This document shows, in pieces, positions 3,208 through 55,165 of a stretch of DNA of 64,000 nucleotides. The notes under the pieces are model-generated. The model had not been told where the DNA came from. It saw nothing but the letters and a program-made list of their open reading frames with translations, and searched no databases. The stretch lies in NCBI RefSeq assembly GCF_024298765.1, contig NZ_CP101210.1; one strand, given 5' to 3'. The stretch comes from Escherichia coli (GTDB lineage: Bacteria; Pseudomonadota; Gammaproteobacteria; Enterobacterales; Enterobacteriaceae). The position numbers and the translations under genes are program-made. Every line of letters starts with the position of its first letter. The stretch's first letter is position 1.

Positions 3208-3242
3208 AGTTCGGTTAAGTTCTTTAGTATGTGCATTTACGA

Positions 3243-10973: not shown

Positions 10974-10994
10974 ATACTGGATAAAAAAACAGTT
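10974..10994. promoter_or_regulatory. LexA box in uvrB promoter
   Basis: atACTGgataaaaaaaCAGtt, CTG-N10-CAG SOS-box geometry ~75 bp upstream of uvrB start. Confidence 0.8.
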
Positions 10995-11478
10995 CCTCAC
11001 CATAATATTTCTGTTACAGCGTAAACTCCGCTGTCAATCATGAGCAAAATTTACTCTGTGACGAGATAAAACTCCGGCCTTACCGGGTTATCCCCAAAGC
11101 AACGGCTTTTTTAACATTTGTCAAGATGAGTGATGACAGTTTTATGGCAAGAGATGCCTCTTCAGTGACTGCCATTGCAATTATCTAACCAGTTAAAAAA
11201 TAAAAGATATTTCTTTGAGCCGTCTTTAACGCCAATTCGCGTGCAAGCCGCGTATTCTCTCGCTTGCCTCGTGTTTTCTAACTCTAATACACATGGTTAT
11301 CCACAGGAATAGTGGATAACTGTCTGCAGCCCCTATCCCCCGCCGCCTGGGCAATTCCCACATACATCGCATGATGCGGAAGTAAAATTTTTTTCGTGAT
11401 TATTTTAGAATTTAATTGGTTAAATTGCAGTCAATCGAAGACGCGATCTCGCTCGCAATTTAACCAAATACAGGATGG

Positions 11479-12156: not shown

Positions 12157-12904
12157 GAGCAATTACTCCCAAAAAAAGATGATACGTCAGAGGATATCGC
12201 CCCTGTTGCTGCGGCCAGGACAGTTGCAATCGCTGCAACTGCGAACGCGTTAATATTCGTGGGTAGCGCCCTTCATGAAGATGCGTGGCACCGATGCCTT
12301 TCAGCGAACGCATAGCACTGAGCGCATCATCAAACCACAGCGTGATGGGCTGAATATGATGTTGATAATGCACGCCGTTCAGCGACAGTTCGATTTCATC
12401 TGGCGGTAAAAAGCGATTAGCATGCGGGCGCTCGTCCACCGCCTGCCACGCCTGATGTAATTCAGGGAGCGATCCCTGCACCAGCGTGGTAAACGCGACC
12501 ACGCCTCCGGGGCGCACCACCCGATACAGCTCGCGAAGTGCCGTGGATAAATTACCGCACCACTGCACCGCGAGATTGCTCCATGCAAGATCGAAGGTTG
12601 CAGTCGCTAACGGCAGGGATTCGATATCTCCCGCCAGATAATGGTCTGCGGCATCCTTCTGGCGTGCCTGAACAAGCATTGGCGGCGAGAGATCTAACGC
12701 CGTCACCTGCGCGTGACGTTTCCGCCAGTGGCGGCTCATCCAGCCAGGTCCACAACCCGCGTCCAGTACGTGGGTGTATTTACGCTGTGGAAGCATTGCC
12801 AGTAAGACGTCAGCACTCTGGCGCTGTAACTCTGCGTGTTGCTCATAGTGCGCGGCTGCCCGTCCAAATGCCGCAGCAATGGCTTGTTTATTAACCGTTG
12901 CCAT
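12149..12904 (-). CDS. bioC: malonyl-ACP O-methyltransferase
   Basis: 251 aa from [17 protein letters not shown]...; SAM-MTase motif VLDAGCGPG. Confidence 0.93.
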
Positions 12905-37088: not shown

Positions 37089-37877
37089 TTACGCCAGTTG
37101 TACGGACACGAACTCATCAGGGTCAGCCAGCAGCATCAGCGGTGCTGACTGAATCATGGTGAACTCACGCGCCGGATCGCCGGTGGTCACCCAGTTTTTC
37201 GGGTAACGGGCAGAGGCGTTAATGCCTTCGCGCTGTGCGTCCGCATCCTGAATGCAGCCATAGGTGCGCAGACCGCGTGCATGAGTGTTACCCAGCACCA
37301 TCGTGTTGTCCGGCAGGAAGTTCTTTTTGACGCCGTTTTCCACGTACTGTCCGGAATACACGACGATGGCCACATCGCCATACATCCCCTTATAGGACAC
37401 CGCTTTACCCAGGTCTTTCACCGCTGTCTCCAGCTCGGAATGAGAGCCGCGACGGGTATCCAGCTTCTCCTTGACGGCGTTGAAGGAACGGAACAGCGCC
37501 CAGCCTTTCGGATCAAACACGATGATATTCACCACGCCGCTGGCGTTCAGCGCGTAGGCTTCGATATCGTCGGTCGGGTCATACGTGGACTTGTCACGCT
37601 TGCTCCACTCCGTGCCGCCGGACTGCGTGATGTTGTTCGCCGCACTGCGGCCCATATCCACCTCAACCGGATCGAAGGCTTCACCGGTCATGGTGTATTT
37701 GCCCTTGAGCACGGCAGAAACTGCCTGCATCTCTTCGACCTGAGCAATGGCCAGCTCTTCGTCACGCATGTTCTGCAGGATGATGCGACGGCGGCGGTAA
37801 GCCGGGTCCGCCAGATTCTGCGGATCTTCATCCGGCAGGCGACGCAGGGTCATCTGCGGATTCACTTCATGCTTGGG
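37089..37877 (-). pseudogene. E: major capsid protein E, C-terminal portion (gene split by island insertion)
   Basis: Encodes ...PKHEVNPQMTLRRLPDEDPQ... to the E C-terminus; upstream in-frame sequence is island DNA with an immediate stop. Confidence 0.9.
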
Positions 37878-37879
37878 TT
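37870..37879. repeat. island left junction direct repeat (att core) tgcttgggtt
   Basis: Identical 10-mer recurs at 48754-48763 at the other E junction. Confidence 0.8.
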
Positions 37880-38013
37880 ACATGAGTCAAATATGAAAGG
37901 ATGTGAATGATTTGATTACGTTTTAGCTATAGAATTGAAATGGAAAATCCTTGAATGCAATACAACGTGCAATACATGGATGAAAACCATCACTCATTTA
38001 ACAAGAGGAATCT

Positions 38014-38919
38014 ATGCGCTCACCCAACAGAATGCATGAACGCTCAACATTTTATAAGTATATGTCGTTGAATACCGCGAAGATTGTTCTTGATTCATGC
38101 AGCCTTAGATGGAGTTCTCCGGTCCTATTTAATGACCCTTTTGATGTTCCAAGAGAAGTTATGCCTGGTATTAACGAAATTAATATTGGCAAAGCTTTAG
38201 CCCGCAAGTTAATAGCGGAGTTGATTACCCCCAGAGAAGACATACAAAATTTAAACCCTAGAATTAGAACAATGCTAAGTGATTTCCAAAAGTCATTTCC
38301 TTTAGGCATACCCGCAGGATTAATTGAAAGATTTCAAGAAATGGTAAACATTCCACCAGTTGGGATTGGCGCTCCTGCGGCAATACAAGAAATGAAAGAT
38401 ATCTGGCGAGGAATGCTTAATAACAGAAGGATTTTGTGTTTATCTGAGAGCCCTATAATCACTCCTATGTGGAATCACTATGCCGATAAATATAAAGGTA
38501 TAGTTATCGAATTTGATTGTGTAGACTTTCTGGATAGCGCTTGGTTAATAGCCAAACCTATGAAATACACAGATGAAATGCCTCTAACTCACACTGCTGA
38601 AGGGATGGCCGAGTTGCTTTTCATGCCAGACAATAAGTCAATTGAATATATCAATAATGAGATAATATTCATAAAAACAGAAGAATGGGCATATGAAAGA
38701 GAGTGGAGAATTTCAACCTACGCTAGGCCAAATAGCACTGGTCAATATAGCGACTTAAAATTTCACCCTTTTGAGTTAAAATCTGTAATACTTGGTCCTC
38801 TTTTTGATGCCAGCGAGTTCGATGAAGTCGCATCACTAGTTAAAATGTATCCAAGAGCGAAATTATTTAAAAGTTCATTTGGGAACGACAGAAAAATATC
38901 CATAGTACCACTACCTTAA
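38014..38919 (+). CDS. hypothetical protein, DUF2971-like (low-GC cargo gene)
   Basis: 301-aa ORF with GAGGA RBS; motifs FYKY...LRWSSPVLFNDPFD, MWNHYADKYKGIVIEFD, EREWRI recalled as DUF2971-like; family assignment from memory only. Confidence 0.6.
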   Translation: MRSPNRMHERSTFYKYMSLNTAKIVLDSCSLRWSSPVLFNDPFDVPREVMPGINEINIGKALARKLIAELITPREDIQNLNPRIRTMLSDFQKSFPLGIPAGLIERFQEMVNIPPVGIGAPAAIQEMKDIWRGMLNNRRILCLSESPIITPMWNHYADKYKGIVIEFDCVDFLDSAWLIAKPMKYTDEMPLTHTAEGMAELLFMPDNKSIEYINNEIIFIKTEEWAYEREWRISTYARPNSTGQYSDLKFHPFELKSVILGPLFDASEFDEVASLVKMYPRAKLFKSSFGNDRKISIVPLP

Positions 38920-38949
38920 AAGGTCAAATGCTTTTGACAAATAAAATCT

Positions 38950-38976
38950 ATCGCCAGTTTTACTGGCGACTTTTAA
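38950..38976 (+). terminator. hairpin terminator between convergent DUF2971-like gene and Nu1-like gene
   Basis: cgccagttttactggcg stem-loop followed by cTTTTaa. Confidence 0.35.
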
Positions 38977-39025
38977 GCAACAAAGAACCACCTAAGCACT
39001 CTTCCTACCTATGGTTTCATTTGTT

Positions 39026-39577
39026 TTAACTTCGCTGATTATCCTTGATATACCTTTCAGCCATATCTGGAATGTTATCTGAGATCTGGTAAGCTCGAAT
39101 AAATGCTTTACTGACCTCCATCTTAATGAAGTCCTGATACCGTTTTTCCATGCCAGGAAACTGTCGACAGATCGCAAGTGGAAGACTATCAATGATTGCT
39201 CCAACTTCCCCAGTTAATTTCGACAAGGCATAAGTCGCAAATGCAGTGTCAATTACCTCACCTGTTTCGCTGGCATTCTTCAGTTCCTGTGCGTCGGCCT
39301 GCGCACGCGTAAGTCGATGGCGTTCGTACTCAATAGTCCCTGGCTGGAGATCTGTCTCGCTGGCCTGCCGCAGTTCTTCAACTTCCCGGCGCAGCTTTTC
39401 GTTCTCAATTTCAGCATCCCTTTCGGCATACCATTTTATGACGGCGGCAGAGTCATAAAGCACCTCATTACCCTTGCCACCGCCTCGCAGAACGGGCATT
39501 CCCTGTTCCTGCCAGTTCTGAATGGTACGGATACTCGCACCGAAAATGTCAGCCAGCTGCTTTTTGTTGACTTCCAT
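39026..39577 (-). CDS. terminase small subunit homolog (Nu1-like chimera)
   Basis: 183 aa; residues 1-~103 essentially identical to the prophage Nu1 at 54397-54942 (winged-HTH cosB-binding domain), C-terminal ~80 aa diverged. Confidence 0.88.
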   Translation of the reverse strand: MEVNKKQLADIFGASIRTIQNWQEQGMPVLRGGGKGNEVLYDSAAVIKWYAERDAEIENEKLRREVEELRQASETDLQPGTIEYERHRLTRAQADAQELKNASETGEVIDTAFATYALSKLTGEVGAIIDSLPLAICRQFPGMEKRYQDFIKMEVSKAFIRAYQISDNIPDMAERYIKDNQRS

Positions 39578-39739
39578 TGTTCATTCCACGGACAAAAACA
39601 GAGAAAGGAAACGACAGAGGCCAAAAAGCTCGCTTTCAGCACCTGTCGTTTCCTTTCTTTTCAGGGGGTATTTTAAATAAAAACATTAAGTTACGACGAA
39701 GAAGAACGGAAACGCCTTAAACCGGAAAATTTTCATAAA

Positions 39740-39800
39740 TAGCGAAAATCCGCGCGCCTGACGCCCCGTAGCCTGTCAGATCGCCGGAAAGGACCCGCCA
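39740..39800. other. cos-like site of the island (variant cosN)
   Basis: Aligns to prophage cos at 55100-55165; the 12-mer equivalent to the cohesive end (39755-39766, cgcctgacgccc) differs at 5/12 positions from aggtcgccgccc. Confidence 0.7.
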
Positions 39801-39822
39801 GCCAGAGCGGGCCCTAATTTCA

Positions 39823-40206
39823 TCAACCAATCAGCTTATAGCGACCATCCCGTGCATTGCGGCGTACACGCTCAATCTTGAGGCATAGCGCCGCATCTGG
39901 CTTTTTTGGGACAGGTACGCGGCAATATTCAGAAGCGCGAGGAATATTATTTATCCAGTCGATCACTTCACTTAAATACCAGGCCTTACGCCCTTCCGTA
40001 ACCTGCACACGCTCCGGGAACTCTCCACTAGCCTCAAGGTTTAGCAGTGTACGCCGACTCAGGGTTGTAATTTCCATCACCTGATTCATATCAACAAGGC
40101 GCTCGCTTAAACACATTTTGTCAGCGATAGCTTTTAATTCCTCTACAGCTGGATTCGGGTACATCATTTCGGCAATTGGCTTAAGGTCATTGTAATCATT
40201 CTGCAT
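39823..40206 (-). CDS. AlpA/MerR-like HTH protein
   Basis: 127-aa ORF; central motif ITTLSRRTLLNLEASGEFPERVQVTEGRKAWYLSEVIDWIN resembles AlpA-family HTH. Confidence 0.6.
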   Translation of the reverse strand: MQNDYNDLKPIAEMMYPNPAVEELKAIADKMCLSERLVDMNQVMEITTLSRRTLLNLEASGEFPERVQVTEGRKAWYLSEVIDWINNIPRASEYCRVPVPKKPDAALCLKIERVRRNARDGRYKLIG

Positions 40207-40217
40207 TGTATCCCCCT

Positions 40218-40559
40218 TTACACACGAGCCAGCGGCTGAACAGAAATACCTGAGCCAACAAACGCTGCAATCTTTACTGACAGTTCTTTTACAGACTCAG
40301 GCCAGTTCAGAGCATCAACATTTAAGACACCTGTCTTATAGACCTGAGCCTGTGTTTTTTTCGCGGTGTCGATTTGTACAGCGGAAACATAAACCGCTTT
40401 ACCTACGCTCGAACCATCCCATACCACCAGTGCACCTGTTGCATCTTCCTGCATCAGTGGCGTAAATGCAGGAATTACCCCTTTATTAGCTGAAAATATC
40501 CCCAGCGTAGTCACCAGTGCTTCAGTGCCAGCCATGAGTTCAGTGTAATGAGTAGCCAT
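40218..40559 (-). CDS. head decoration protein, gpD-like (divergent)
   Basis: 113 aa; shared pattern with lambda D (TPLM...WDG...YK.G...WPE...AF.G..IS) at ~30% identity. Confidence 0.7.
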   Translation of the reverse strand: MATHYTELMAGTEALVTTLGIFSANKGVIPAFTPLMQEDATGALVVWDGSSVGKAVYVSAVQIDTAKKTQAQVYKTGVLNVDALNWPESVKELSVKIAAFVGSGISVQPLARV

Positions 40560-40568
40560 TGCTCCCCC

Positions 40569-41615
40569 TTAGCCAATGCGAACGGTAACAAAACGATTGA
40601 TGCGGGCCGGTATTGGCTGTGGTGCTGAATGTGTCTGCACATATTCAATAGCCGGATCACCAGGCACAATATAGTTTTTCGGTGCAAGTTCGGCTTTAGT
40701 CAGCCCCATTCGGATTAGCTCCGGATCCTGAATACCGCCATAGGCGACAATCCCCTGAAGAGCCGTATTGCCAAGCACCATCAAATCAGGATCAAGGAAA
40801 TGTTTTTCAGTTCCGTCCTCGTCGGTATAACGCCCGCTGTATACAACAATCGCAACATCGCCCATATACCCTTTAAAACTCACCGAATCACCAAGGTCTT
40901 TAAGGGCCGTTTCCAGTTCGGAATTAGAGCCACGACGGGTATCCAGAGCCTCTTTTATCGCTCTGAATGAACGGTATTTCTTCCATACATTACCGCCCAT
41001 AATGATGATATTAGTGACGCCCTCACTAAATTCTGCGTAGCTCTCAATATCATCATTTGGATCAAAAGTTTCTTTATCCTTACCTGACCACTCAGCACCG
41101 CCAGACTGAGTGATGATATTTTGTGGTTTAATATTCCAGTCCAGCTCATAACGTTCAATACCATCGCCCTCAATGATATTTTTCCCCGTTGTGATTGCCT
41201 GAACGGCAAGCCATTCAATACGTGCACGAATAGATTTAGCCTGATTTACAATCGCCTGTTTAACTTTAATATTACGCGCTCCAAAAGCATTGTATTGCTC
41301 AGGTGATACACCAGCAGGGCGCACAGCTAACTTATTTGGATCAATGCTGCTTTTCGGCTTCATATAGCCTGGACGAATTGTTTTTGATTCGTACCCTTCG
41401 TCACGTGAAACTTTACTACCCACCATAGGAGAACAAAACGCTGCAATTGGGATATTTGGATCGTCGATTGTATCAAGAATAATATCGCGCGATTCAAACA
41501 TTACCGAGCGAGTAAAAAACAAACTGGTAAACAACGCATTTAGTTGTTTTTGTACATCTACAGCATTAACCACCTGTACAAGCTGGGTAGGCGAATATAA
41601 ATCAACCATACGCAT
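40569..41615 (-). CDS. major capsid protein, gpE-like (divergent)
   Basis: 348 aa from MRMVDLYSPTQL (RBS AAAGAGG); ~50% identity to prophage E over ITQSGG...DTRRGS.SELETA...GDVAIVVYSG...MVLGNT. Confidence 0.85.
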   Translation of the reverse strand: MRMVDLYSPTQLVQVVNAVDVQKQLNALFTSLFFTRSVMFESRDIILDTIDDPNIPIAAFCSPMVGSKVSRDEGYESKTIRPGYMKPKSSIDPNKLAVRPAGVSPEQYNAFGARNIKVKQAIVNQAKSIRARIEWLAVQAITTGKNIIEGDGIERYELDWNIKPQNIITQSGGAEWSGKDKETFDPNDDIESYAEFSEGVTNIIIMGGNVWKKYRSFRAIKEALDTRRGSNSELETALKDLGDSVSFKGYMGDVAIVVYSGRYTDEDGTEKHFLDPDLMVLGNTALQGIVAYGGIQDPELIRMGLTKAELAPKNYIVPGDPAIEYVQTHSAPQPIPARINRFVTVRIG

Positions 41616-41826
41616 CCTCTTTGCATTCATTAAAAATAATTGTGGATATATGCTATCACCGATATTTGTCATGCGAATACATGCAACCGAGTGCAATGTT
41701 GTATAAAGTTTTGGGATAACAACTTCAGCGCGGATAATTAGTGTTAATATCTTAACTCCCTTTGGTCGGGATTTATGTAGCATGCCGGAAAATTTATTTT
41801 TTTCCGGCCTTTTTTATTGGCAATAT

Positions 41827-42276
41827 TTAAAACGGAATATCATCTCCCCATTGCTCATTATCTCCCACTGGTGGATGGCTTCCTTGCTGATCTGCCTGTT
41901 GTTTTGCTCTGTTCAGTGCGTCAGTAGCCTGACCCTGTTGACCTTTTTTGCCGCCCGGTCGCACCGTTCGCGCACTGATTACGCTGTCTGCGATAACCTG
42001 CCAGCCCTGCCGCGTTTCACCGTTCTGTCCAGTCCACTGGCTCACCTGCATATTACCCGCCACGCTCAGGAGTTCGCCTTTGTGATGCTTTGCCAGCGCG
42101 TCGGCTTGTCTGCCAAACGCCAGGACAGATAACCACATCGTCGCCGTTCCGTCATCTGCCTGGCTGCATGGCAAAGATACCGCCATCCGTGCCAGTGTCA
42201 TGGGTGTTCCCTTGCTGGTATGTTTTACCTGTGGGTCGTCCACCAGCCGCCCGTAAGCTGCTATTTGCGCCGTCAT
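41827..42276 (-). CDS. ssb: single-stranded DNA-binding protein
   Basis: 149-aa ORF with OB-fold pattern, Gly/Gln-rich linker and acidic C-terminal tail ...GDDIPF. Confidence 0.8.
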   Translation of the reverse strand: MTAQIAAYGRLVDDPQVKHTSKGTPMTLARMAVSLPCSQADDGTATMWLSVLAFGRQADALAKHHKGELLSVAGNMQVSQWTGQNGETRQGWQVIADSVISARTVRPGGKKGQQGQATDALNRAKQQADQQGSHPPVGDNEQWGDDIPF

Positions 42277-42287
42277 GCTGCCTGCTC

Positions 42288-42530
42288 TCAGGACTTAATA
42301 TTGATGGTTGTCACTTCCTCCGCTTCGGCAATCTCCCGTTCGGTCAGCGTGGCAAAGTTTGCAGCCGCCGTTGTCATGAATGCGCTTATCAGTTCGGGAT
42401 GTGCTTTCGCGTATCCTTCCCCGGCGTTGCGGTCTATTGCCTTAATCGCCACCCTTAGCCAGTGTTCAGCCATATCAAGGGCGCGGTAATGTGGCTTTAT
42501 ATGTTTGTTCAGTTTTCCTGATGTGTGCAT
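42288..42530 (-). CDS. hypothetical protein
   Basis: 80-aa ORF in operon between origin and ssb. Confidence 0.5.
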   Translation of the reverse strand: MHTSGKLNKHIKPHYRALDMAEHWLRVAIKAIDRNAGEGYAKAHPELISAFMTTAAANFATLTEREIAEAEEVTTINIKS

Positions 42531-42559
42531 TTTTATTTTTACCCCCTCGTTTAAAAAGT

Positions 42560-42810
42560 TTTTTGTGCACCACCACCTTGTCTACCTTGTCTACCTGATT
42601 AGTTATCAGGCCAGTAATGGCGCGGGTTTCAGGGAGGTAGACAGCCCCAAATAGCTGTCTACCTCATCTCTACCCGTCTCCTTACCTGTCTACAAAAATG
42701 GGTAGATAAGGTAGATAACAGGTAGACAGTGAAAAATAGTTATCTACCTGCATTAATGCATTGAAATAAAAGTATTTTATTTCAGTCAGGTAGACAAGGT
42801 AGATAACCAT
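42560..42810. repeat. iteron cluster, putative island origin of replication
   Basis: >12 copies of GGTAGAYA / TRTCTACC in both orientations immediately downstream of the primase gene. Confidence 0.8.
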
Positions 42811-42819
42811 TGCCATTTT

Positions 42820-44571
42820 TTATAAAAACGCATCGCAATCATCAGTAGTCGTTGCGTTGGTCTGCGTGACTCCCTTAACTTTTCGCGTAATATATTCATA
42901 TCCGTAAACTTTCGCCGCTGACCTCATAGCCTTTCCGAACTCATTCACGCTCAAACATTTCCCCTTTCCTGTATATGCCATGAAGGCCATATAGACACGG
43001 TAAAGGCTGTTTCTGGTCGTGTACTTCACGGTGTCACCACCACCGCCCATCATTAGCCCACGAGCTTCCTCCAGAAACTCCAGCGCCGCGCAAAGCTCAA
43101 CAACCGGATCCGTTTGCTGCTTTATTGCCAGAGCTTCATCACCGTCACGCTGTTCCAGTAATAAAGCCCGTGCCTTTTCAGGGTCAGCAAAATTAGCCAG
43201 CAAGCGGCGGATAATTACGGGGATTTCTGCCGCTATCTTTTCCGGTAATTCCTTGTCTTTTTCGTCCTCCCTTACAATGTTGTCGAACCGGAAAATCACC
43301 CGACGGCGTGACACACCTCCGGCCCGTTCGGTAAAGATCATCGGGTCGTTATTGGTTGCCAGTACCACCGCCCTTATTATCGTCGTGAATCGCTTCTCAT
43401 ATTTCGGGTTAATTTCAACGGGATCGCCTCCCGTGATTTTCTTGATGCCCGTGCCTTCCCCCGTATATTTCGGCTGATCGGCAAGGACGATAAGACGACT
43501 CCCGACAACCTGCGCACGCCCTCCTGCATCATCGAGTGATGTCATCTCTGCGCTTACGGTGTTCTGTTTGCCAGCAAGCAGGGTGGCAATATGGGTAAAT
43601 GTACTCTTACCGCTTCCCCCGTCTCCGGTGGCCTCAATGAACATCTGCCAGTCGTACCGGTTCGCCATAATCATGTACAGCGCGGCACATATACGCATCA
43701 TCTTGCGCGGGTCTTTTCCGGCTGCGTGCTCAAGCCATTTATGAAAGTTTGGCGCGTTATCGCGGATGTTCTCCCCTGGTGCTGGTGGCGTGTACTCAAT
43801 GCCGTTGTGCGTGGTGATCCAGTTCTCCGGCGTGTGCGGGGAAAATTCCCCCGTTTTCAGGTCAAGCGCACCATTGGCGAACGGCAGCAAATCGCCGGAC
43901 GGCTCGCCCATTGGTTCGGCAATAACTTTTAACGCTTCAACGGCGTTATTGATCACGCGTTTGCTGAAAGTGGCCCTGTGCTCTGAATAGATCGCCACCA
44001 TTTCGCGGCTCAGCTCCATTGTGCTGATCGGACACCATACCCCGCCGCGCCATACGTGAACGATTTCACTTTCCGGATGCACACAAACGCCATCAAAGCG
44101 CTCGGCAAGCAGCTGCGCGCGCTCACTGTCTGCCATCTGTGAAAGTTGCGCCTTTTGCTTCGTCGGAAGATTAAGCACCAGGCTTTCCCCACGCTCGCAT
44201 TCCTCTTTGAGTCGCGGCAACTGGTCGGATAAATCCACTGGGCTGATGTCAGTAATCCCCGCGTATTCGTGTACGGTCTTCACTCCAGCCACAGCCAGTA
44301 ACGTAACAATCTGCGTCATGCTGTGCTCTGTGATATGTCCTGCGCGGTAAACACGCACACACTGACGATCTTCATCAATGATCCGGTAATCGGTGATGTT
44401 TTTCAGTTGCTCATCAGCCAACACGACAGGCGGCACATCGTCGGCGGCAATATGTTTACCCGCCCATTCCTGCCACTCTTTCGCATGGCTCCACGCATCA
44501 CTACCTGCAAAGATGATTATCTCTGTCAGTCTGTCGCGTGGCTGTTTTTTTAAGTTCGGTGCCAGTTTCAT
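42820..44571 (-). CDS. primase/helicase-like replication protein (P-loop NTPase, D5/P4-alpha-like)
   Basis: 583-aa ORF with Walker A GDGGSGKST and primase C-terminal-like region. Confidence 0.8.
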   Translation of the reverse strand: MKLAPNLKKQPRDRLTEIIIFAGSDAWSHAKEWQEWAGKHIAADDVPPVVLADEQLKNITDYRIIDEDRQCVRVYRAGHITEHSMTQIVTLLAVAGVKTVHEYAGITDISPVDLSDQLPRLKEECERGESLVLNLPTKQKAQLSQMADSERAQLLAERFDGVCVHPESEIVHVWRGGVWCPISTMELSREMVAIYSEHRATFSKRVINNAVEALKVIAEPMGEPSGDLLPFANGALDLKTGEFSPHTPENWITTHNGIEYTPPAPGENIRDNAPNFHKWLEHAAGKDPRKMMRICAALYMIMANRYDWQMFIEATGDGGSGKSTFTHIATLLAGKQNTVSAEMTSLDDAGGRAQVVGSRLIVLADQPKYTGEGTGIKKITGGDPVEINPKYEKRFTTIIRAVVLATNNDPMIFTERAGGVSRRRVIFRFDNIVREDEKDKELPEKIAAEIPVIIRRLLANFADPEKARALLLEQRDGDEALAIKQQTDPVVELCAALEFLEEARGLMMGGGGDTVKYTTRNSLYRVYMAFMAYTGKGKCLSVNEFGKAMRSAAKVYGYEYITRKVKGVTQTNATTTDDCDAFL

Positions 44572-44867
44572 TTTTTGCCCCTGAATGCGTTAATCATGCT
44601 TTTCATTTTCTGGATGTTTCCCCGCGCTTTTTCCCTGCTGATGGGCTTACTGCGGGGTGCGGCATATACCAGGGAAAAATCACGCCGGAACTGATAAACA
44701 GGCATCACGCAGTCATAGCTATACCCCTCACGACGGTAAGTGATGCGCCGTTCTGCCACGCCTTTAATCGTTACCGTGCCGCCGTATTTATCGCGGTAAA
44801 TATCGCCGTTCATAAATTCAGGCCGAGCGGGGCCGCTGGCAATAAAGCCAGAATTTTTCATTTCCAT
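44568..44867 (-). CDS. hypothetical protein
   Basis: 99-aa ORF overlapping primase start by 4 nt. Confidence 0.55.
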   Translation of the reverse strand: MEMKNSGFIASGPARPEFMNGDIYRDKYGGTVTIKGVAERRITYRREGYSYDCVMPVYQFRRDFSLVYAAPRSKPISREKARGNIQKMKSMINAFRGKK

Positions 44868-44884
44868 ATTATTTATTCCTCGAC

Positions 44885-45106
44885 TTAACTCGACTTATTT
44901 GATAGCTGGGCACTATTTATTGCGTCATTGAGTTTTTCTGCTGCTTCATCAATAAGTGACAACAGGCCATAAGCAATATTTGCATCTTCATTGTCATTTA
45001 TGCAATCAAGCCACATATTTAATATTGCTTTTGCTGAATTATTTAAAGTTAATGAACTTTCTGCACATGCTAACAATTTAAAAAAGACTTCCCGTTCTGT
45101 ATTCAT
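44885..45106 (-). CDS. hypothetical protein
   Basis: 73-aa low-GC ORF in the island leftward operon. Confidence 0.5.
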   Translation of the reverse strand: MNTEREVFFKLLACAESSLTLNNSAKAILNMWLDCINDNEDANIAYGLLSLIDEAAEKLNDAINSAQLSNKSS

Positions 45107-45298
45107 TTAATCCCCCACCAGCTTACTTTCTTCCTCAATCAAAAAACTAGCGACACTTCCCGAAAGACGCGCCAGTAGGCTCGCCAGTGCGGATATATCA
45201 GCATCTGTAATTTTGTTCGGGTATACCTCAAGAAGGCGGCAAATAATTTCTGTCTGGTGCGCACGTTCAGCGGCTTCGTGTAATGTGATTTCCTGCAT
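45107..45298 (-). CDS. hypothetical protein
   Basis: 63-aa ORF, start/stop abutting neighbours. Confidence 0.5.
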   Translation of the reverse strand: MQEITLHEAAERAHQTEIICRLLEVYPNKITDADISALASLLARLSGSVASFLIEEESKLVGD

Positions 45299-45483
45299 TA
45301 ATGCACCTCTTTTAATTCATACACTGCTGAAATAATGACTTGTGATAAGCCATATTCTGATGATTCGCTTCTCACCGCAGCAATAGCCGTCTGAACATTA
45401 ACAGCCTTCACATTCTGAGCGATACCAATTGTGTGGCCTATTGGGTTAACAGCTCGGGCAAATACACGGAAGGTTTTAAGCAT
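45298..45483 (-). CDS. hypothetical protein
   Basis: 61-aa ORF in operon. Confidence 0.5.
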   Translation of the reverse strand: MLKTFRVFARAVNPIGHTIGIAQNVKAVNVQTAIAAVRSESSEYGLSQVIISAVYELKEVH

Positions 45484-45673
45484 GACTCACTCCCTGGCGG
45501 ATTTTTGCAGCGAATACAGCAACACAACCGGACGGGCAACGGCTACGCGCTTCGCGTTCCGTCCAGGCGGTTACGTGGATGATTTGAGATTCTCCGGCAC
45601 TCAGTGCCAGAAAACGCCACACAAAGGCCGTTTGTGTGTGTACAAGGTGTGGTATATGATTTACAGCAACCAT
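45476..45673 (-). CDS. hypothetical small protein (first gene of leftward operon)
   Basis: 65 codons from internal ATG preceded by AGGAG at -7; rest of the 243-aa ORF-track call rejected. Confidence 0.35.
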   Translation of the reverse strand: MVAVNHIPHLVHTQTAFVWRFLALSAGESQIIHVTAWTEREARSRCPSGCVAVFAAKIRQGVSHA

Positions 45674-45764
45674 AACGGCTCCTAGTTTACGTTGTTGGTT
45701 AGACGCCCCGTATGTGTTCCCAGCACTGCGGGGCGTTGCTCTTTGTATTTCAACAATCCTTTCG

Positions 45765-45797
45765 GTGTGTTTCATGTTATGAGCGCATGAAACACAC
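45765..45797. promoter_or_regulatory. operator-like inverted repeat in divergent promoter region
   Basis: tgtgtttcatg-N9-catgaaacaca perfect 11-bp arms; third half-site tgaaacacac at 45832-45841. Confidence 0.6.
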
Positions 45798-45863
45798 GTC
45801 AAGGCTTTTTGTATTTCTTTTTTTGTGTATACTGAAACACACCGATGATTAGGAGTTTCAGAA

Positions 45864-46169
45864 ATGGCAACGGCTAACAAAAACGCAAAATCACAACTGA
45901 CAACTGTCAGAGTCCCACTAGATGTTATGCAAGGGATGGAATCCGTTAAGCTGGACGGTGAAAGCAATGCCGGATTTATCGTAACCGCCATGCGCGGTGA
46001 AATCGCCCGCCGCCAGGCAGAAGGAAGCGGAGAAAATCCCCTCGTGTCTTCACTGGATGCCTTAGCTAAGGTCGAACAAATCGGCATCAAGGCAGCGGAG
46101 GAAATCGGGCAACTCGTAGCCGTCGCTCGTGAAGAACTCCAGCGGCGTAAAGCCAAAGAATCTGAATAA
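45864..46169 (+). CDS. small DNA-binding protein, ribbon-helix-helix-like, putative island regulator
   Basis: 101-aa ORF with AGGAG RBS, divergent from the replication/packaging operon; N-terminus LTTVRVPLDVMQGMESV resembles RHH. Confidence 0.55.
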   Translation: MATANKNAKSQLTTVRVPLDVMQGMESVKLDGESNAGFIVTAMRGEIARRQAEGSGENPLVSSLDALAKVEQIGIKAAEEIGQLVAVAREELQRRKAKESE

Positions 46170-46519
46170 TTAGTATCAGCGCCGTGATGTGAGTAACTAC
46201 GGCGCATTGCTATGTAAATACTGGCAATAAACAGAAAAGGTAGTTCTACTCCGAATAATTTTATCTGACACTACTCCTGAACTAACATGCGCTTATCTTA
46301 CAGGATATAAATATAAATCCATAAAATCACGATTAAATAAAGTCGCTCCAAACATAAACCACACCCAACGCTTAACAAGATAGCAACAAACAGGTAAATA
46401 ACTTGCAGAAATATTTATCGCAAGGATTATCATTATTAATGACAAATCACTTTACCAAGTCATTCCCCTCTCTTATCATAAAGAGAAAGTAATAAATAAG
46501 TTAAGGGAGTTAGAATGCT

Positions 46520-47056
46520 ATGAATCTAAAAAAAATAGCCACAAACACAAAAAACAAGATAACAGAAACATTTAATAAACTTATATTAGAGGCATCTAAA
46601 ACCCCCACACAAGATGAAATTAAAATACTTGAGAGAAGGAGTAAGAAGTTTAATTACTCCTTTTTCTCATACGCAGTCACAGGAGCTATAATAGTTTTTT
46701 GCTCTCAACCATTAATTAAATACGCAAACCCAATACTTATTTTATTGAGTGGTCTGTTACTGTCTATCATCATTATCATTCTCAGAATGATTTATATTTC
46801 ACAAGCGAATGCATCATGGACAACCAAAAAACGCTCACATGTACTAGTTCATTTTCTTTCTGCATGTTTCATAGCATCAACATTGACGTTGCTATATCAG
46901 GCTTACGATAATAACATCACACACAAATTGTACTGTAAAAATATACAACAACTTATTGAAAAAAGGATAAAAACAGAAAAAAACATCAGCATATTCAGTG
47001 GGATGCAATGCACCCCGGTATATGATTACTCTTTATTTGGATTTAATCTCTTATAA
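46520..47056 (+). CDS. hypothetical membrane protein (very low GC cargo)
   Basis: 178-aa ORF with ~3 predicted TM helices; RBS GGGAG; AT-rich. Confidence 0.6.
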   Translation: MNLKKIATNTKNKITETFNKLILEASKTPTQDEIKILERRSKKFNYSFFSYAVTGAIIVFCSQPLIKYANPILILLSGLLLSIIIIILRMIYISQANASWTTKKRSHVLVHFLSACFIASTLTLLYQAYDNNITHKLYCKNIQQLIEKRIKTEKNISIFSGMQCTPVYDYSLFGFNLL

Positions 47057-47125
47057 AGAATGTTATTACTGATTTGAGTACAAATTCTCAAATCAGTAAT
47101 TCATAATATTTTATTCTGAGATAAT

Positions 47126-47362
47126 TTAAACTACCCACTCACCTCGAATCCATGCCTGCACTTCTGAAAGACGATATGCAACAGCAGTGGAACCAATCTT
47201 GATCCGCTTAGGAAATTTTCCTTCCTTCTCCAGCTTCCAGCGTGTGCTGTTCGCAAGAGTGGTTAGCTCCCGACATTCTTTCTCACGGATCATTCGGTCA
47301 ATGTTAGGAATGTACTCCAGACCCTTTTTATCAACAATTGCCATTTTTTTCATGTTAACCAA
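47126..47362 (-). CDS. alpA: AlpA-family transcriptional regulator/excisionase
   Basis: 78-aa ORF; motif ELTTLANSTRWKLEKEGKFPKRIKIGSTAVAYRLSEVQAWI; immediately downstream of int. Confidence 0.8.
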   Translation of the reverse strand: MVNMKKMAIVDKKGLEYIPNIDRMIREKECRELTTLANSTRWKLEKEGKFPKRIKIGSTAVAYRLSEVQAWIRGEWVV

Positions 47363-48590
47363 CCTTTTGTTTGAGGATTGTCACTTTTGAATCAGCACCT
47401 GCGATGCTATTGAGATATGTAGTCCAGAGTTCCAGAGCATCCAGTTTTTTAGCCATAAACTTACTCCGGTTGTAAACACCTGCCACGCCAGGTAGCGCAT
47501 GGCCTAACAGTTGTTCTACTACATAAAATTCAACACCGAGATCACTTAGATGAGTAGATAGCGTTCTTCTAAGGTCGTGTAGTGACCATTGTTTTTCATG
47601 GCCCAAACGTTTACCGATTTTCCCCCCAATCTTGCTTACGCTTTCTCTAATTCGCAGACTTCCCAGCACATAACCAGTATGTTTTGTCTCTTCGTGAACA
47701 TCCGTTACCCACTGTCGTAGAATTTCAGGTACTGGTCTGACGATTTCAACACCAGTTTTTGAGTGATCTTTTGGTACAGTCCAAACCCAACTTTCGAGAT
47801 CCCATTCGCTCCATTCTGATAATCGGGCTTCACTCATTCGACATCCAAATACTGTACAAAGCACAAACATTTTTCGCGTGTATTCAGACATTAGTTTTAA
47901 ATCAGGCTCGACAAAAATTGCCTTCCAGAGCTGGCCGAGTTCGGCTTCATCCAGAACCCGATCCCGCTTACCTGCAATCTGCCCCACATCACTCATGCGC
48001 AAATCCTTTAAAGCATCACACGTCGCGTACTGGCGTACCCGACAAAAACGAAGAGCTAATTTAGTGTCAGAAAAAACATACGCCGCCATAACTGGTGCAT
48101 TACGTTTAATTCGGTCAAAACAGTCCAGCCATTCATATAGGTGAGTGTCATTTACGGGCAAATGACCGATATAGGGAAAGATATGCTTTCGAAATCTGCC
48201 AAGCGTTACAGCATGAGTTTTACGACGCACCTTACAGTAATTTTCATACCAGTAATTTAGTGCATCCTCCACTGTAACTGGCTTTAAGCGTTCTTCAGCC
48301 TGAATCTTAATCTGGATACGCGGATCACGTTTGTCAGCCAACCAACCACGGCACTCGTCGCGCTTTTCCCTTGCCTGTTTGAGTGACATATCAGGATATT
48401 TACCCAACGTTAGCCAGACCGGAGCAGCCCGGCCACCTGCTAACCTGTAGAAGAAAACAAAGCTCACAGCCCCTTTAGTACTCACACGAATAGAAAGCCC
48501 CTTTCCATCAGCAATGGTGATCTGCTTTTCTCTGGGTTTCCCCAGATATCCTTTAAGCGCTTTGTCGCTCAGTTTGTTCTCGCCAGCCAT
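47355..48590 (-). CDS. int: tyrosine site-specific integrase (P4-type)
   Basis: 411 aa from MAGENKLSDKALKGY; catalytic R...HDLRRT...LLGH...Y motifs; adjacent to right island junction. Confidence 0.9.
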   Translation of the reverse strand: MAGENKLSDKALKGYLGKPREKQITIADGKGLSIRVSTKGAVSFVFFYRLAGGRAAPVWLTLGKYPDMSLKQAREKRDECRGWLADKRDPRIQIKIQAEERLKPVTVEDALNYWYENYCKVRRKTHAVTLGRFRKHIFPYIGHLPVNDTHLYEWLDCFDRIKRNAPVMAAYVFSDTKLALRFCRVRQYATCDALKDLRMSDVGQIAGKRDRVLDEAELGQLWKAIFVEPDLKLMSEYTRKMFVLCTVFGCRMSEARLSEWSEWDLESWVWTVPKDHSKTGVEIVRPVPEILRQWVTDVHEETKHTGYVLGSLRIRESVSKIGGKIGKRLGHEKQWSLHDLRRTLSTHLSDLGVEFYVVEQLLGHALPGVAGVYNRSKFMAKKLDALELWTTYLNSIAGADSKVTILKQKVG

Positions 48591-48752
48591 TTTTAGCCCC
48601 AAAAAGCAATACAAGCTGCAATACAGAGATGATTGCAACACACAGATAACGAGGAAAATTCAGTGAAAGCACCAGATAAACTTATTCTTTATTATCAAAA
48701 GATTAAGTGTAAAAACCAGCAACTACACGAAAGCCTCAGAAAGCCATGCTAA

Positions 48753-48998
48753 GTGCTTGGGTTTGACATATCCCGGCGTAAATTCAGAGGTGGAGCCGCC
48801 ACGGGAACGGATAACCTCACCGGAAACAATCGGCGAAACGTACAGCGCCATGTTTACCAGTCCCGGAATTTGTGAGAGATAGACTTTCTCCGTAGTGAAG
48901 GGATAGCTCTCACGGAAAAAGAGACGCAGAAACAGCGGATCAAACTTAAATTTCTGCTCATTTGCCGCCAGCAGCTGGGCGGTTGTGTACATCGACAT
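48753..48998 (-). pseudogene. E: major capsid protein E, N-terminal portion (82 codons) truncated by island
   Basis: MSMYTTAQLLAANEQKFKFDPLFLRL...GYVKPKH then island-derived LAWLSEAFV and stop. Confidence 0.9.
48754..48763. repeat. island right junction direct repeat (att core) tgcttgggtt
   Basis: Identical to 37870-37879. Confidence 0.8.
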
Positions 48999-50715: not shown

Positions 50716-54396
<3,681 letters not shown>

Positions 54397-54422
<26 letters not shown>

Positions 54423-54942
54423 TCAGCAACCCCGGTATCAGTTCATCCAGCGCGGCTGCTTTGTTCATAGCTTTGATGATATCCCGTTTCAGGAAATCAA
54501 CATGTCGGTTTTCCAGTTCCGGAAAACGCCGCTGCACCGACAGGGGGATCCCGTCGAGAATACTGGCAATTTCACCTGCGATCCGCGACAGCACGAAAGT
54601 ACAGAATGCGGTTTCCACCACTTCAGCTGAGTCTCTGGCATTCTTCAGTTCCTGTGCGTCGGCCTGCGCACGCGTAAGTCGATGGCGTTCGTACTCAATA
54701 GTCCCTGGCTGCAGATCTGTCTCGCTGGCCTGCCGCAGTTCTTCAACTTCCCGGCGCAGCTTTTCGTTCTCAATTTCAGCATCCCTTTCGGCATACCATT
54801 TTATAACGGCGGCAGAGTCATAAAGCACCTCATTACCCTTGCCACCGCCTCGCAGAACGGGCATTCCCTGTTCCTGCCAGTTCTGAATGGTACGGATACT
54901 CGCACCGAAAATGTCAGCCAGCTGCTTTTTGTTGACTTCCAT
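54397..54942 (-). CDS. Nu1: terminase small subunit Nu1
   Basis: 181-aa ORF matching lambda Nu1 end to end. Confidence 0.95.
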
Positions 54943-55099
54943 TGTTCATTCCACGGCCAAAAACAGAGAAAGGAAACGACAAAGGCCCAAAAGTTCGTTT
55001 TCAGCACCTGTCGTTTCCTTTCTTTTCAGGGGTTATTTTAAATAAAAACATTAAGTTACGACGAAGAAGAACGGAAACACCTTAAACCGGAAAATTTTC

Positions 55100-55165
55100 A
55101 TAAATAGCAAAAACCCGCGAGGTCGCCGCCCCGTAACCTGTCGGATCGCCGGAAAGGACCCGTAA
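55100..55165. other. prophage cos site (cosN cohesive-end 12-mer at 55120-55131)
   Basis: aggtcgccgccc = reverse complement of lambda cohesive end GGGCGGCGACCT; flanking sequence matches lambda left/right ends. Confidence 0.9.

What the first reader, a model, noticed from the sequence alone, without database searches (positions are those of the whole stretch)
39026..39800. Island carries a near-copy of the helper cosB/Nu1 5' region with a mutated cosN and a chimeric small terminase
Island 39271-39797 is nearly identical to prophage 54637-55162 (cosB, Nu1 start and the Nu1 N-terminal DNA-binding domain). Two things then diverge. The Nu1 C-terminal ~80 residues, which in lambda mediate oligomerisation and gpA contact, are only ~45% identical in the island protein. 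The 12-mer that gives the cohesive end is cgcctgacgccc (39755-39766) against aggtcgccgccc (55120-55131), 5 of 12 changed. This looks like packaging-signal piracy with altered nicking site and terminase-interaction domain. It could be competitive or redirected packaging, or a decayed copy.
Basis: seen in the sequence. Interest (0 to 1): 0.85.

Follow-up and report, generated by a model that had tools for sequence, protein, structure and literature searches.

The report
Embedded satellite's swappable packaging module
An 11-kb phage satellite sitting inside its helper prophage's capsid gene carries a working-looking lambda-type packaging site plus a hybrid small-terminase gene; the satellite family is already published and the "mutated" cut site is a natural, tolerated variant, but the hybrid gene and its exchangeable front half are a new detail.

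Summary
Island 39271-39797 matches the helper cos/Nu1 5' region with 18 mismatches in 527 bp. Five of them fall in the 12-bp cosN. Nu1 residues 1-102 are identical and the rest is ~38% identical.

The interpretation needs revision in four ways.
- The island (37880-48763) is a published "helper-embedded PICI" of the 11capE family, integrated in the prophage's capsid gene E. That paper already noted cos sharing.
- The cosN variant GGGCGTCAGGCG is not an island mutation. It also occurs at the cos of lambda-like prophages with near-identical Nu1 and gpA. Four of its five changes lie in the cosN half reported not to affect nicking.
- The divergent C-terminal half is the island lineage's own part. 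The lambda-type cosB plus DNA-binding half was acquired by recombination.
- That front half is a swappable cassette. In strain A37 the same C-half is fused to a phage-21-like cosB and DNA-binding half, 423/423 bp identical to the resident helper.

cos is conserved in every copy. The hybrid terS is expendable: it is deleted in 31 of 40 related copies and carries W22* in others. This is a new variant of a known kind, of moderate interest. Packaging has never been shown experimentally.

The parts
37880..48763 (-). Helper-embedded PICI (11capE family), 10.9 kb, co-oriented with the helper late operon. Genes: int, AlpA-like, primase, SSB, capsid, decoration protein, second AlpA-like, cos, hybrid terS, cargo.
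   Evidence: Junction reads. ORFs. PHROG assignments. At least 51 of 5,426 complete E. coli genomes carry it. Same synteny in RefSeq annotation. Published as Eco567.11capE (PMC10111431).
37870..37879 (-). att identity block AACCCAAGCA at the island's terS-side junction with the 3' part of helper gene E.
   Evidence: Joining the flanks restores ...PGYVKPKH|EVNPQMTL... of lambda-type E. The paper reports a 10-bp identity block.
48754..48763 (-). att identity block AACCCAAGCA at the island's int-side junction with the 5' part of helper gene E.
39026..39577 (-). Hybrid small-terminase gene (183 aa). Codons 1-102 (39272-39577) are lambda Nu1-type: the DNA-binding domain and the start of the central region. 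Codons 103-183 (39026-39271) are island-lineage type: the oligomerisation and TerL-binding half.
   Evidence: Pfam Phage_Nu1, E=7e-84. Residues 1-98 match lambda Nu1 at 97/98 (PDB 6hn7_B). The C-half is absent from 50,697 phage records. The exact protein is on 139 contigs.
39578..39754 (-). cosB, lambda type (R3, I1, R2, R1). R3 (AGGCGTTTCCGTTCTT) is at 39702-39717. There are 9 mismatches in 177 bp against the helper cosB.
   Evidence: R3 was placed from lambda bp 50-65 as given in PMC9026076. The R2/R1 inverted pair was detected.
39755..39766 (-). cosN 12-mer, allele GGGCGTCAGGCG on the lambda top strand. It differs from the helper's GGGCGGCGACCT at bp 6, 8, 9, 10 and 12. The flanking CG|...|CG and the left half GGGCG are intact.
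39767..39797 (-). Segment from cosQ to cosN. The cosQ heptamer GGGTCCT is at 39790-39796. The sequence here is of the island-lineage type: 0 mismatches to other islands, 2 to the helper.
   Evidence: The position of cosQ in lambda is from my own knowledge of lambda (bp 48473-48479).
39823..40206 (-). AlpA-family regulator (127 aa) directly upstream of cos. It served as the anchor for the family census. It is not an Rpp.
   Evidence: PHROG 2790. PDB 8c3t, E=2e-9, and no Rpp match.
38014..38919 (+). Cargo gene (301 aa, DUF2971, 37.6% GC region) next to terS. Cargo replacement at this position removes terS in other copies.
   Evidence: PADLOC PDC-S31, E=1.8e-32. Alternative cargo DUF262+HEPN in L001. 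L010 is identical to the window up to R1 and then diverges.
54397..55162 (-). Helper packaging module: Nu1 54397-54942, cosB 54943-55119, cosN 55120-55131 (lambda-type GGGCGGCGACCT), cosQ segment 55132-55162.
52497..54422 (-). Helper large terminase gpA (641 aa). It is the only TerL available to the island.
48754..48998 (-). 5' fragment of helper major capsid gene E (about codons 1-81), interrupted by the island.
37089..37879 (-). 3' fragment of helper major capsid gene E.

Best explanation
The feature is the DNA-packaging module of a helper-embedded phage satellite (HE-PICI, 11capE family) integrated in gene E of a lambda-like prophage. It has two parts.

(1) A complete lambda-type cos: cosQ, cosN, and cosB with R3-I1-R2-R1. 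[quoted passage not shown] The island's cohesive end GGGCGTCAGGCG is simply another natural allele, also used by some lambda-like prophages. It pairs with itself, so island DNA can still cyclise.

(2) A hybrid terS. The island lineage originally had its own small terminase with its own DNA-binding half and its own cosB. Homologous recombination with a lambda-like phage replaced cosN, cosB and the DNA-binding half. The crossovers lay near the conserved cosQ/cosN stretch and in the invariant R-x-R-L-x-x-A-Q-A-x-A-Q-E-L-K-N coding patch. The island's own C-terminal half, which oligomerises and binds TerL, was kept.

The hybrid probably still couples lambda cosB to helper gpA. With a lambda-type helper it duplicates helper Nu1, which explains why relatives have lost it.

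Shown here: the anatomy, the family-wide conservation of cos, the recombinant origin, cassette exchange with a resident helper (strain A37), and the dispensability of terS.

Inferred: that cos is actually cut and packaged, and that the C-half binds gpA.
For: - Island identity and context.
- cos intact, with all subsites and spacing.
- cos conserved while terS is lost. In 79 related copies, 40 have lambda-like cosB retained through R1. Of these, 31 have no terS, 4 have W22* and 5 are intact. L010 equals the window's island up to R1 and then switches cargo.
- The variant cosN also sits at real phage-type cos sites with near-identical Nu1 and gpA (L088, L124, L136). A sister allele GGGCGGAAGGCG is in phages PhiR46_1 and YDC107_1 and in an intact prophage, L141.
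- Published tolerance of bp 7-12 changes and natural right-half variation: PMC4669245.
- The C-half is of island lineage. It is absent from phages. Relatives at 67-77% identity include one (P0002, on L005) in the same capsid-decoration-AlpA-cos-terS synteny, with its own DNA-binding half and cosB. An intact own-type terS of ~180 aa occurs in 35 related islands, and this type of cos/terS region is present in 761 complete genomes.
- The crossover patch is invariant across all TerS types.
- Cassette exchange: in strain A37 the same C-half is fused to a 21-like cosB and DNA-binding half. It is 423/423 bp identical to the resident helper, with mismatches on both flanks.
- Functional lambda-21 TerS chimeras with the same domain logic are known (PMC9026076).
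- The hybrid ORF recurs intact: the exact protein is on 139 contigs and the 3' half is in 31 of 5,426 genomes.
Against: - No experiment shows that any 11capE-type island is packaged. The authors could not detect virions.
- bp 6 of cosN is also changed. It lies at the centre of the site, outside the bp 7-12 range reported as tolerant.
- Three gpA residues (S21A, E185D, T466I) co-vary with cosN allele in a 3-versus-3 comparison, so some allele specificity of gpA is not excluded.
- The C-half is only ~38% identical to lambda Nu1's, and lambda/21 TerS-TerL pairing is specific. Binding to helper gpA is therefore an assumption.
- In strains E1 and S1bESBLb the island's lambda-type cosB does not match the 21-like helper, and the island terS is broken. 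Those copies may be stranded, which shows the module is not always functional.
- The C-half is at least 99.6% identical everywhere, so there is no evolutionary-rate evidence for or against selection on it.
Confidence: 0.6

Rival explanations
1. One reading: redirected or competitive packaging. The altered cosN and altered terminase-interaction half together create an island-specific packaging specificity that diverts the helper terminase from helper DNA to island DNA.
For: The cosN difference is strongly clustered (P=4e-5). The C-half covers the region that in lambda mediates oligomerisation and gpA binding (PMC9026076). Satellites that retarget terminase are known (Rpp, PMC6739421). In all 8 sampled composites where a lambda-type helper hosts a lambda-module island, helper and island differ in cosN allele.
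Against: TerS does not read cosN, and the DNA-binding half and cosB are the same as the helper's, so nothing discriminates the two DNAs. The variant cosN occurs at phage-type cos sites with near-identical gpA. Right-half changes do not affect cleavage. terS is deleted or broken in most relatives, yet the variant cosN persists. No Rpp homologue was found.
Confidence: 0.08
2. Decayed relic: the whole cos/terS segment is a non-functional remnant of late-gene capture, and the island spreads in some other way or not at all.
For: W22* in a spreading sublineage. terS is absent from 31 of 40 related copies. Virions were not detected for the prototype. Many helpers are themselves degraded: gpA is frameshifted in L145, protease has an internal stop in L143, and E has an internal stop in EC93.
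Against: cosQ, the flanking CG dinucleotides, the cosN left half, R3, R2, R1 and their spacing are all intact in the window. They are retained even in copies that have replaced everything downstream of R1. A neutral relic would not keep a 240-bp non-coding block while neighbouring genes turn over. The ORF is intact here and on hundreds of contigs.
Confidence: 0.12
3. Orthogonal cohesive ends: the cosN allele mismatch between island and helper is selected. The island cos lies about 15.4 kb downstream of the helper cos and is co-oriented with it. In an unexcised ~61-kb composite, the stretch from island cos to the next helper cos is a packageable ~46 kb. Non-complementary ends (5 of 12) would stop such hybrid chromosomes from cyclising, or would keep island and helper packaging series apart.
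For: All 40 related copies with lambda-like cosB carry the variant allele. Copies with their own cosB mostly carry the lambda allele (Fisher P=7e-15). The 8 lambda/lambda composites are all mismatched. A 2-bp mismatch already costs about 4-fold in yield. Alleles differ at 2-5 of the 7 variable positions (bp 6-12), 4-5 of them against the lambda allele, while flanks are 97-99% identical. That is more than neutral drift predicts.
Against: The association is confounded by clonal descent. Strain A37 carries an island whose cosN and cosB are identical to its helper's. Variant alleles occur in island-free prophages. Hybrid island-cos to helper-cos molecules lack most of the island, so it is unclear who would benefit. 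The published view is that bp 7-12 are simply unselected.
Confidence: 0.1
4. Interference factor: the hybrid TerS is a dominant-negative. It dimerises with helper Nu1 through the identical DNA-binding domain, or occupies cosB, but fails to recruit gpA productively. This lowers helper packaging.
For: The N-terminal domain is identical and in lambda forms tight dimers (PMC9026076). The C-half is only ~38% identical. Satellites commonly inhibit helper packaging.
Against: It would block the island's own identical cosB just as much. The gene is frequently lost without replacement. Residues invariant across all TerS types, including the terminal I-P...Y motif, are kept in the C-half, which suggests retained function rather than a poison.
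Confidence: 0.1

Closest known systems
Eco567.11capE, the prototype helper-embedded PICI (Tommasini, Mageeney & Williams 2023, PMC10111431)
   Same: Same element family. About 11 kb, integrated at the same 10-bp block in lambda-type capsid gene E and co-oriented with the late genes. Same int, AlpA, primase, SSB, capsid and decoration genes. A cos-like stretch is shared with the helper.
   Different: The prototype is described as lacking terS and sharing only 258 bp at 90% with its helper. The window's copy has a full 183-aa hybrid terS and a 527-bp match at 96.6%. The cosN allele difference and the cassette exchange are not described in that paper's text, and Nu1, terminase and cos terms do not occur in its supplements held as text.
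EcCICFT073 and the Rpp system (Fillol-Salom 2018, 2019; PMC6092414, PMC6739421)
   Same: An E. coli cos satellite of lambda-like helpers. It keeps cosQ/cosN-like sequences and depends on helper TerL.
   Different: Opposite logic. EcCICFT073 keeps cosN but has an unrelated cosB, and it uses Rpp, a TerS-derived protein lacking the TerL-binding tail, to retarget helper TerS. Here cosB and the DNA-binding half are the helper's type, there is no Rpp, and the protein is a full-length TerS.
Satellite-encoded small terminases of pac-type SaPIs, and helper-cos carriage by SaPIbov5 (as summarised in PMC6092414 and PMC6739421)
   Same: The related islands that carry their own cosB and own TerS work like SaPI TerS: a satellite TerS that pairs with helper TerL. 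The window's copy resembles SaPIbov5 in carrying the helper's own cos type.
   Different: Different phage families and a different terminase fold context. In the window the two strategies are fused in one gene, with a helper-type DNA-binding half and a satellite-type TerL-binding half.
Laboratory lambda-21 hybrid TerS (Frackman et al. 1985, as reviewed in PMC9026076)
   Same: Same domain logic and a crossover in the middle of the gene. The N-half sets cosB specificity and the C-half sets TerL pairing. Such chimeras are functional.
   Different: Those are phage-phage hybrids made in the laboratory. Here the hybrids are natural phage-satellite ones, with two different N-halves (lambda-like, 21-like) found on one satellite C-half.
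Natural cosN variation in lambda-like phages: N15 and phiD326 (bp 9, 12), Gifsy-1 (bp 8, 9, 11) (Feiss et al. 2015, PMC4669245; Vahanian et al. 2017, not held)
   Same: Variation is confined essentially to the right half of the 12-mer. The left half, the flanking CG and cosQ are conserved. Terminase is reported to be indifferent to these changes.
   Different: The window's allele differs at five positions including central bp 6, and it occurs among otherwise 97-99% identical E. coli lambda-like elements. I could not check whether this exact allele is listed in Vahanian 2017.

Membership tests
Helper-embedded PICI (HE-PICI, 11capE group) | [quoted passage not shown] | tested here: met
   AACCCAAGCA occurs at both junctions, and joining the flanks restores E. 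All island late genes are on the helper late strand.
Helper-embedded PICI (HE-PICI, 11capE group) | Tyrosine integrase followed by AlpA, then the replication zone (primase, SSB), then the late zone. | tested here: met
   (PHROGs) and RefSeq annotation of near-identical copies.
Helper-embedded PICI (HE-PICI, 11capE group) | Excision and replication on helper induction, and transfer in helper-made particles. | not testable with these tools
   Excision and replication are shown for the prototype only. Particles were not detected.
Lambda-type small terminase (Phage_Nu1, PF07471) | Full-length match to the Nu1 profile with an N-terminal winged-helix DNA-binding domain. | tested here: met
   Pfam E=7e-84 over residues 1-162. 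97/98 identity to lambda Nu1 residues 1-98.
Lambda-type small terminase (Phage_Nu1, PF07471) | A cognate cosB (R sites) immediately upstream, at lambda spacing from cosN. | tested here: met
   ungapped alignment with helper and lambda-like cos. R3 lies at lambda bp 50-65.
Lambda-type small terminase (Phage_Nu1, PF07471) | The C-terminal ~40 residues bind the cognate large terminase. | not testable with these tools
   The C-half is ~38% identical to lambda's. Residues invariant across all TerS types are kept. No interaction data exist.
Functional lambda-like cos site | cosQ heptamer, a 12-bp cosN with conserved left half and flanking CG dinucleotides, and cosB. | tested here: met
   judged against the criteria in PMC4669245.
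Functional lambda-like cos site | Cleaved by terminase to give 12-nt cohesive ends. | not testable with these tools
   Indirect only: the same 12-mer is at the cos of lambda-like prophages, and the sister allele is in sequenced phages.
Rpp-type packaging redirection (EcCICFT073-like) | An Rpp protein encoded next to cos. | tested here: not met
   The 127-aa neighbour is AlpA-family with no Rpp match. RppC matches the hybrid TerS only marginally (E=0.04).
Rpp-type packaging redirection (EcCICFT073-like) | A cosB unrelated to the helper's. | tested here: not met
   The island cosB has 9 mismatches in 177 bp against the helper's.
Capsid-forming PICI (cf-PICI) | Encodes its own TerL, portal and protease as well as capsid. 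| tested here: not met
   Of the morphogenesis genes, only capsid, decoration protein and TerS are present.

The most novel reading that the evidence does not exclude
Embedded satellites keep a two-part small terminase: a constant satellite-specific half that docks on the helper's large terminase, and an exchangeable cosN-cosB-DNA-binding cassette. The cassette is repeatedly overwritten by gene conversion from whichever lambdoid helper the satellite sits in. This would let the satellite track, or deliberately offset, its helper's packaging specificity. The cohesive-end allele would then be an additional selected compatibility label between helper and satellite DNA.
Probability: 0.2. Interest if true: 0.65.

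Novelty: new variant of a known kind. Interest (0 to 1): 0.4.

Why it matters
It corrects a tempting reading. The changed cut site is an ordinary natural allele, not a sign of altered nicking.

It also adds a detail to a recently described satellite type. Some helper-embedded PICIs do encode a small terminase, and it is a natural phage-satellite hybrid. Its DNA-recognition half, together with the matching cosB and cosN, can be replaced from the resident helper.

This offers a natural test set for three questions:
- how modular TerS domains are;
- which TerS residues contact TerL;
- how embedded satellites stay compatible with helpers of different packaging specificity (lambda-like or 21-like).

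The practical consequence is small until packaging of these islands is shown.

Tried and rejected
- **A phage donor of the C-terminal half.** tblastn against 50,697 phage records gave nothing better than 40% identity, which is lambda Nu1 itself. A simple phage-phage mosaic is rejected.
- **An Rpp on the island.** None was found.
- **Recent exchange with this particular helper.** Rejected: the island segment is equally close to unrelated phages.
- **The rule that an island cos never equals its helper's cos.** It looked strong in the census, but strain A37 breaks it and the census is clonal. I kept it only as a low-probability rival.
- **Composites whose helper has a variant cosN.** The two variant-allele prophages I fetched (L141, L142) carry no island, so that test could not be made.
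- **gpA specificity differences.** Three co-varying residues were seen in a 3-versus-3 comparison, which is too few and is phylogenetically confounded.
- **Databases with no hits.** NCBIfam gave nothing for any TerS, and Rfam gave nothing on the island.
- **Vahanian et al. 2017** (the natural cosN survey) is not held, so I could not check whether this allele is already listed there.
- **The word-indexed protein search with the C-half alone** returned only 6 proteins. The family's true breadth outside E. coli is probably underestimated.
Full report
**1. The observation**

Reading both segments and aligning them confirms the finding. Island 39271-39797 is collinear with helper 54636-55162 at a constant offset of 15365. 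There are 18 mismatches in 527 bp.

Five mismatches lie in the 12-bp cosN. On the + strand the island reads cgcctgacgccc at 39755-39766 and the helper reads aggtcgccgccc at 55120-55131. On the lambda top strand these are GGGCGTCAGGCG and GGGCGGCGACCT. That degree of clustering has P = 4e-5. A cosQ-to-cosN pattern occurs exactly twice in the window and never in shuffles.

The two Nu1-like proteins are identical for residues 1-102 and about 38-39% identical afterwards. Pfam assigns the island protein to Phage_Nu1 (E = 7e-84). Its first 98 residues match lambda Nu1 at 97 of 98.

**2.

The ORF at 37089-37865 is the C-terminal part of a lambda-type major capsid protein E. The N-terminal part is at 48754-48998. 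Both junctions carry AACCCAAGCA, and joining the flanks restores ...PGYVKPKH|EVNPQMTL....

So a 10.9-kb element (37880-48763) is integrated site-specifically inside the helper's capsid gene, co-oriented with the late operon. In order it carries integrase, AlpA-like regulator, primase, SSB, its own E-like capsid gene, a D-like decoration gene, a second AlpA-family gene, cos, the Nu1-like gene and a cargo gene.

This is the published "helper-embedded PICI" Eco567.11capE family (Tommasini, Mageeney & Williams 2023, PMC10111431). At least 51 of 5,426 complete E. coli genomes carry the island at 80% coverage or more. In every copy I inspected it sits next to lambda-type head genes.

That paper states that 11capE lacks terS. 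It notes only a 258-bp, 90% match to the helper at the cos position, and it presumes cos packaging. Virions could not be detected, so packaging remains unproven.

**3. The "mutated" cosN is a natural allele**

I anchored on the AlpA-like gene just upstream of cos and compared 80 IMG/VR loci with the window and other copies. Island copies carry four cosN alleles:

| Allele | Copies with a readable cosN (83) |
|---|---|
| GGGCGTCAGGCG (the window's) | 49 |
| GGGCGGCGACCT (lambda type) | 32 |
| GGGCGGAAGGCG | 1 |
| GGGCGGCTGACG | 1 |

All variation lies at bp 6-12. The left half GGGCG and the flanking CG dinucleotides never change.

An exact scan of IMG/VR for the window's allele gave 53 sites, 4 of them outside the island context. 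Three of these (L088, L124, L136) are ordinary lambda-like phage-type cos regions. They have lambda cosB, a Nu1 99.4% identical to the window's helper, and gpA at 98.6-100% identity.

The allele GGGCGGAAGGCG is at the cos of the sequenced phages PhiR46_1 and YDC107_1. It is also in an intact island-free prophage in strain ETEC1721.

Feiss et al. 2015 (PMC4669245) report four relevant points:
- cosN is functionally asymmetric.
- Changes at bp 7-12 do not measurably affect cleavage, because TerS bound at R3 positions the bottom-strand nick.
- Such variation is common in nature (N15, phiD326, Gifsy-1).
- cosQ, the left half and the flanking CG are the selected parts.

The window's allele keeps all the selected parts. 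Only bp 6 falls outside the documented tolerant range. "Altered nicking site" and "decayed cosN" are therefore not supported.

The real consequence is that island and helper cohesive ends are not complementary at 5 of 12 positions.

**4. "Near-copy of the helper" is not specific to this helper**

The same segment is 97.0-97.7% identical to lambda and to many lambda-like phages. Outside cosN it has 13 mismatches to the resident helper and 15-19 to unrelated prophages. The 31-bp cosQ flank is of the island-lineage type: 0 mismatches to other islands and 2 to the helper.

**5. Origin of the chimera**

No phage among 50,697 records carries the C-terminal half. The best match is lambda Nu1 at 40%, and phage DNA matches stop exactly at the breakpoint.

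Relatives of the C-half at 67-77% identity exist. One of them, P0002, lies on metagenome contig L005. That contig has the same gene order (capsid, decoration, AlpA-like, cos, terS). Its cosN is lambda-type, its cosB is unrelated, and its terS has a divergent winged-helix N-half.

Among the close E. coli relatives, 39 of 79 copies have such an "own" cosB, and 35 of these have an intact own-type terS of ~180 aa. This type of cos/terS region is present in 761 of 5,426 complete genomes. One example is an island embedded in the portal gene of strain EC93. There helper and island share cosN, but the sequences diverge 23 bp into cosB.

So the C-half is the satellite's own part, and the lambda-type cosB plus DNA-binding half is the acquired part. 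The breakpoint sits directly after a motif (R-x-R-L-x-x-A-Q-A-x-A-Q-E-L-K-N) that is invariant in all TerS types. That gives an obvious site for homologous crossover.

**6. The front half is an exchangeable cassette**

The island-type 3' half occurs in 31 of 5,426 complete genomes, always at 99.6% identity or more.

In sampled composites the island is always in gene E, with its cos 15.2-15.5 kb downstream of the helper cos and co-oriented with it.

In strain A37 the helper has a phage-21-like cosB and DNA-binding half. That half is 85.7% identical to phage 21 gp1 and 100% to phage IdasGreatGrand. The embedded island carries the same cosN, cosB and N-half fused to the usual island C-half. Island and helper are identical over 423 consecutive bp, from just before cosN to about codon 77, with mismatches on both flanks. 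This is a fresh conversion tract from the resident helper, and cosN simply travelled with it. The hybrid is unique to A37.

In strains E1 and S1bESBLb the helper is 21-like, but the island still has the lambda-type module.

**7. cos is kept and terS is expendable**

| Related copies with lambda-like cosB (n = 40) | Count |
|---|---|
| Intact hybrid terS | 5 |
| Hybrid terS with W22* | 4 |
| No terS | 31 |

W22* is one shared nonsense mutation in the recognition helix, so it was a single event. It also appears in RefSeq copies.

The terS-less copies keep cosB through R1 and diverge immediately after it. L010 is identical to the window's island up to that point.

The adjacent cargo gene differs between copies. 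It is DUF2971 here, which matches PADLOC candidate family PDC-S31 (E = 1.8e-32), and DUF262+HEPN elsewhere. This points to cargo turnover as the cause of terS loss.

**8. Most likely mechanism**

Inferred: helper Nu1 binds the island's lambda-type cosB, and the hybrid TerS does so where present. Helper gpA then nicks the island cosN. Concatemers made by the island's own replication module are packaged, and island DNA cyclises through its own self-complementary ends.

The hybrid TerS is best seen as a still-plausibly-functional adaptor (lambda cosB to helper gpA). It became redundant once the island adopted the helper family's cosB.

Laboratory lambda-21 TerS chimeras with the same architecture are functional (PMC9026076). 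C-half residues invariant across all TerS types are retained.

**9. Rivals**

- Redirected packaging fails because nothing in the module distinguishes island DNA from helper DNA.
- A pure relic fails because cos is conserved while its neighbours turn over.
- Selected "orthogonal ends" remains possible. In the census all 40 copies with lambda-like cosB carry the variant allele, and all 8 lambda/lambda composites I sampled are mismatched. The alleles also differ far more than their flanks do. However, the census is clonal, A37 is a counterexample, and variant alleles occur in island-free prophages.
- A dominant-negative role for the hybrid is not excluded.

**10. Verdict**

The element is a member of a published satellite family, and the cosN difference is ordinary. 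The new elements are the natural phage-satellite hybrid terS and the evidence for cassette exchange with the resident helper. This is a new variant of a known kind, of moderate interest.

Noticed in passing
window 37870-37879 and 48754-48763; E fragments 37089-37879 and 48754-48998: The island interrupts the helper's major capsid gene E at a 10-bp identity block while carrying its own E-like capsid gene (40569-41783) and D-like decoration gene (40218-40559). This is the published HE-PICI configuration.
   Followed up: yes
window 38014-38919 (+): The low-GC cargo gene (301 aa, DUF2971) matches PADLOC candidate defence family PDC-S31 (E=1.8e-32). Other copies carry DUF262+HEPN at the same position, so this looks like a defence-cargo hotspot at the island's end.
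   Followed up: partly
L137 (phage PhiR46_1), L138 (YDC107_1), L088, L141 compared with window 52497-54422: In a 3-versus-3 comparison, gpA residues S21A, E185D and T466I co-vary with the cosN allele (lambda type versus variant). The sample is too small and phylogenetically confounded, but T466I lies in the C-terminal part of gpA, where the endonuclease centre is located.
   Followed up: partly
L002, L014, L018, L032, L140, L146, L147, L148 (island terS): A single nonsense mutation, W22*, in the recognition helix of the hybrid TerS is shared by copies in many unrelated strains. It leaves a possible restart at M27, giving a 157-aa protein without the DNA-binding helix. It is unknown whether that product does anything.
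   Followed up: partly
L145, L146, L148 (helper terS, WP_000867489.1): The helper small terminase in these strains is itself a natural hybrid. Its N-half is phage-21-like. Its C-half is identical to the lambda-type helper's apart from the last residue. It is joined in the same region as the island hybrid, so the conserved patch seems to be a general recombination point.
   Followed up: partly
L147, helper cos (rc position ~1398): The helper cosN reads ACGAGGCGGCGACCT, a change at bp 1 in the left half, which is the half reported to be sensitive. This helper may be packaging-defective.
   Followed up: no
L139 (E. coli EC93), 10129-22629: A related island with the same late module but its own cosB and TerS is embedded in the helper's portal gene. 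In that prophage gene E carries an internal stop.
   Followed up: partly
L003, L004 (Klebsiella), 10001-10399: A frameshifted relative of the island-type TerS C-half lacks the DNA-binding half. It sits in an unrelated element with TrbL, NikA-like and AAA_25 genes, which looks like a stray fragment of a satellite packaging gene.
   Followed up: no
window 40569-41783 (-): The island capsid ORF is open for 404 codons here, whereas RefSeq annotates a 346-aa product in near-identical copies. The true start is uncertain.
   Followed up: no
L143, L145 (helper genes): Several helpers hosting the island are themselves damaged: the S49 protease has an internal stop in strain 95-3322, and gpA is frameshifted in A37. 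This agrees with the paper's remark that many HE-PICI helpers look degraded.
   Followed up: no
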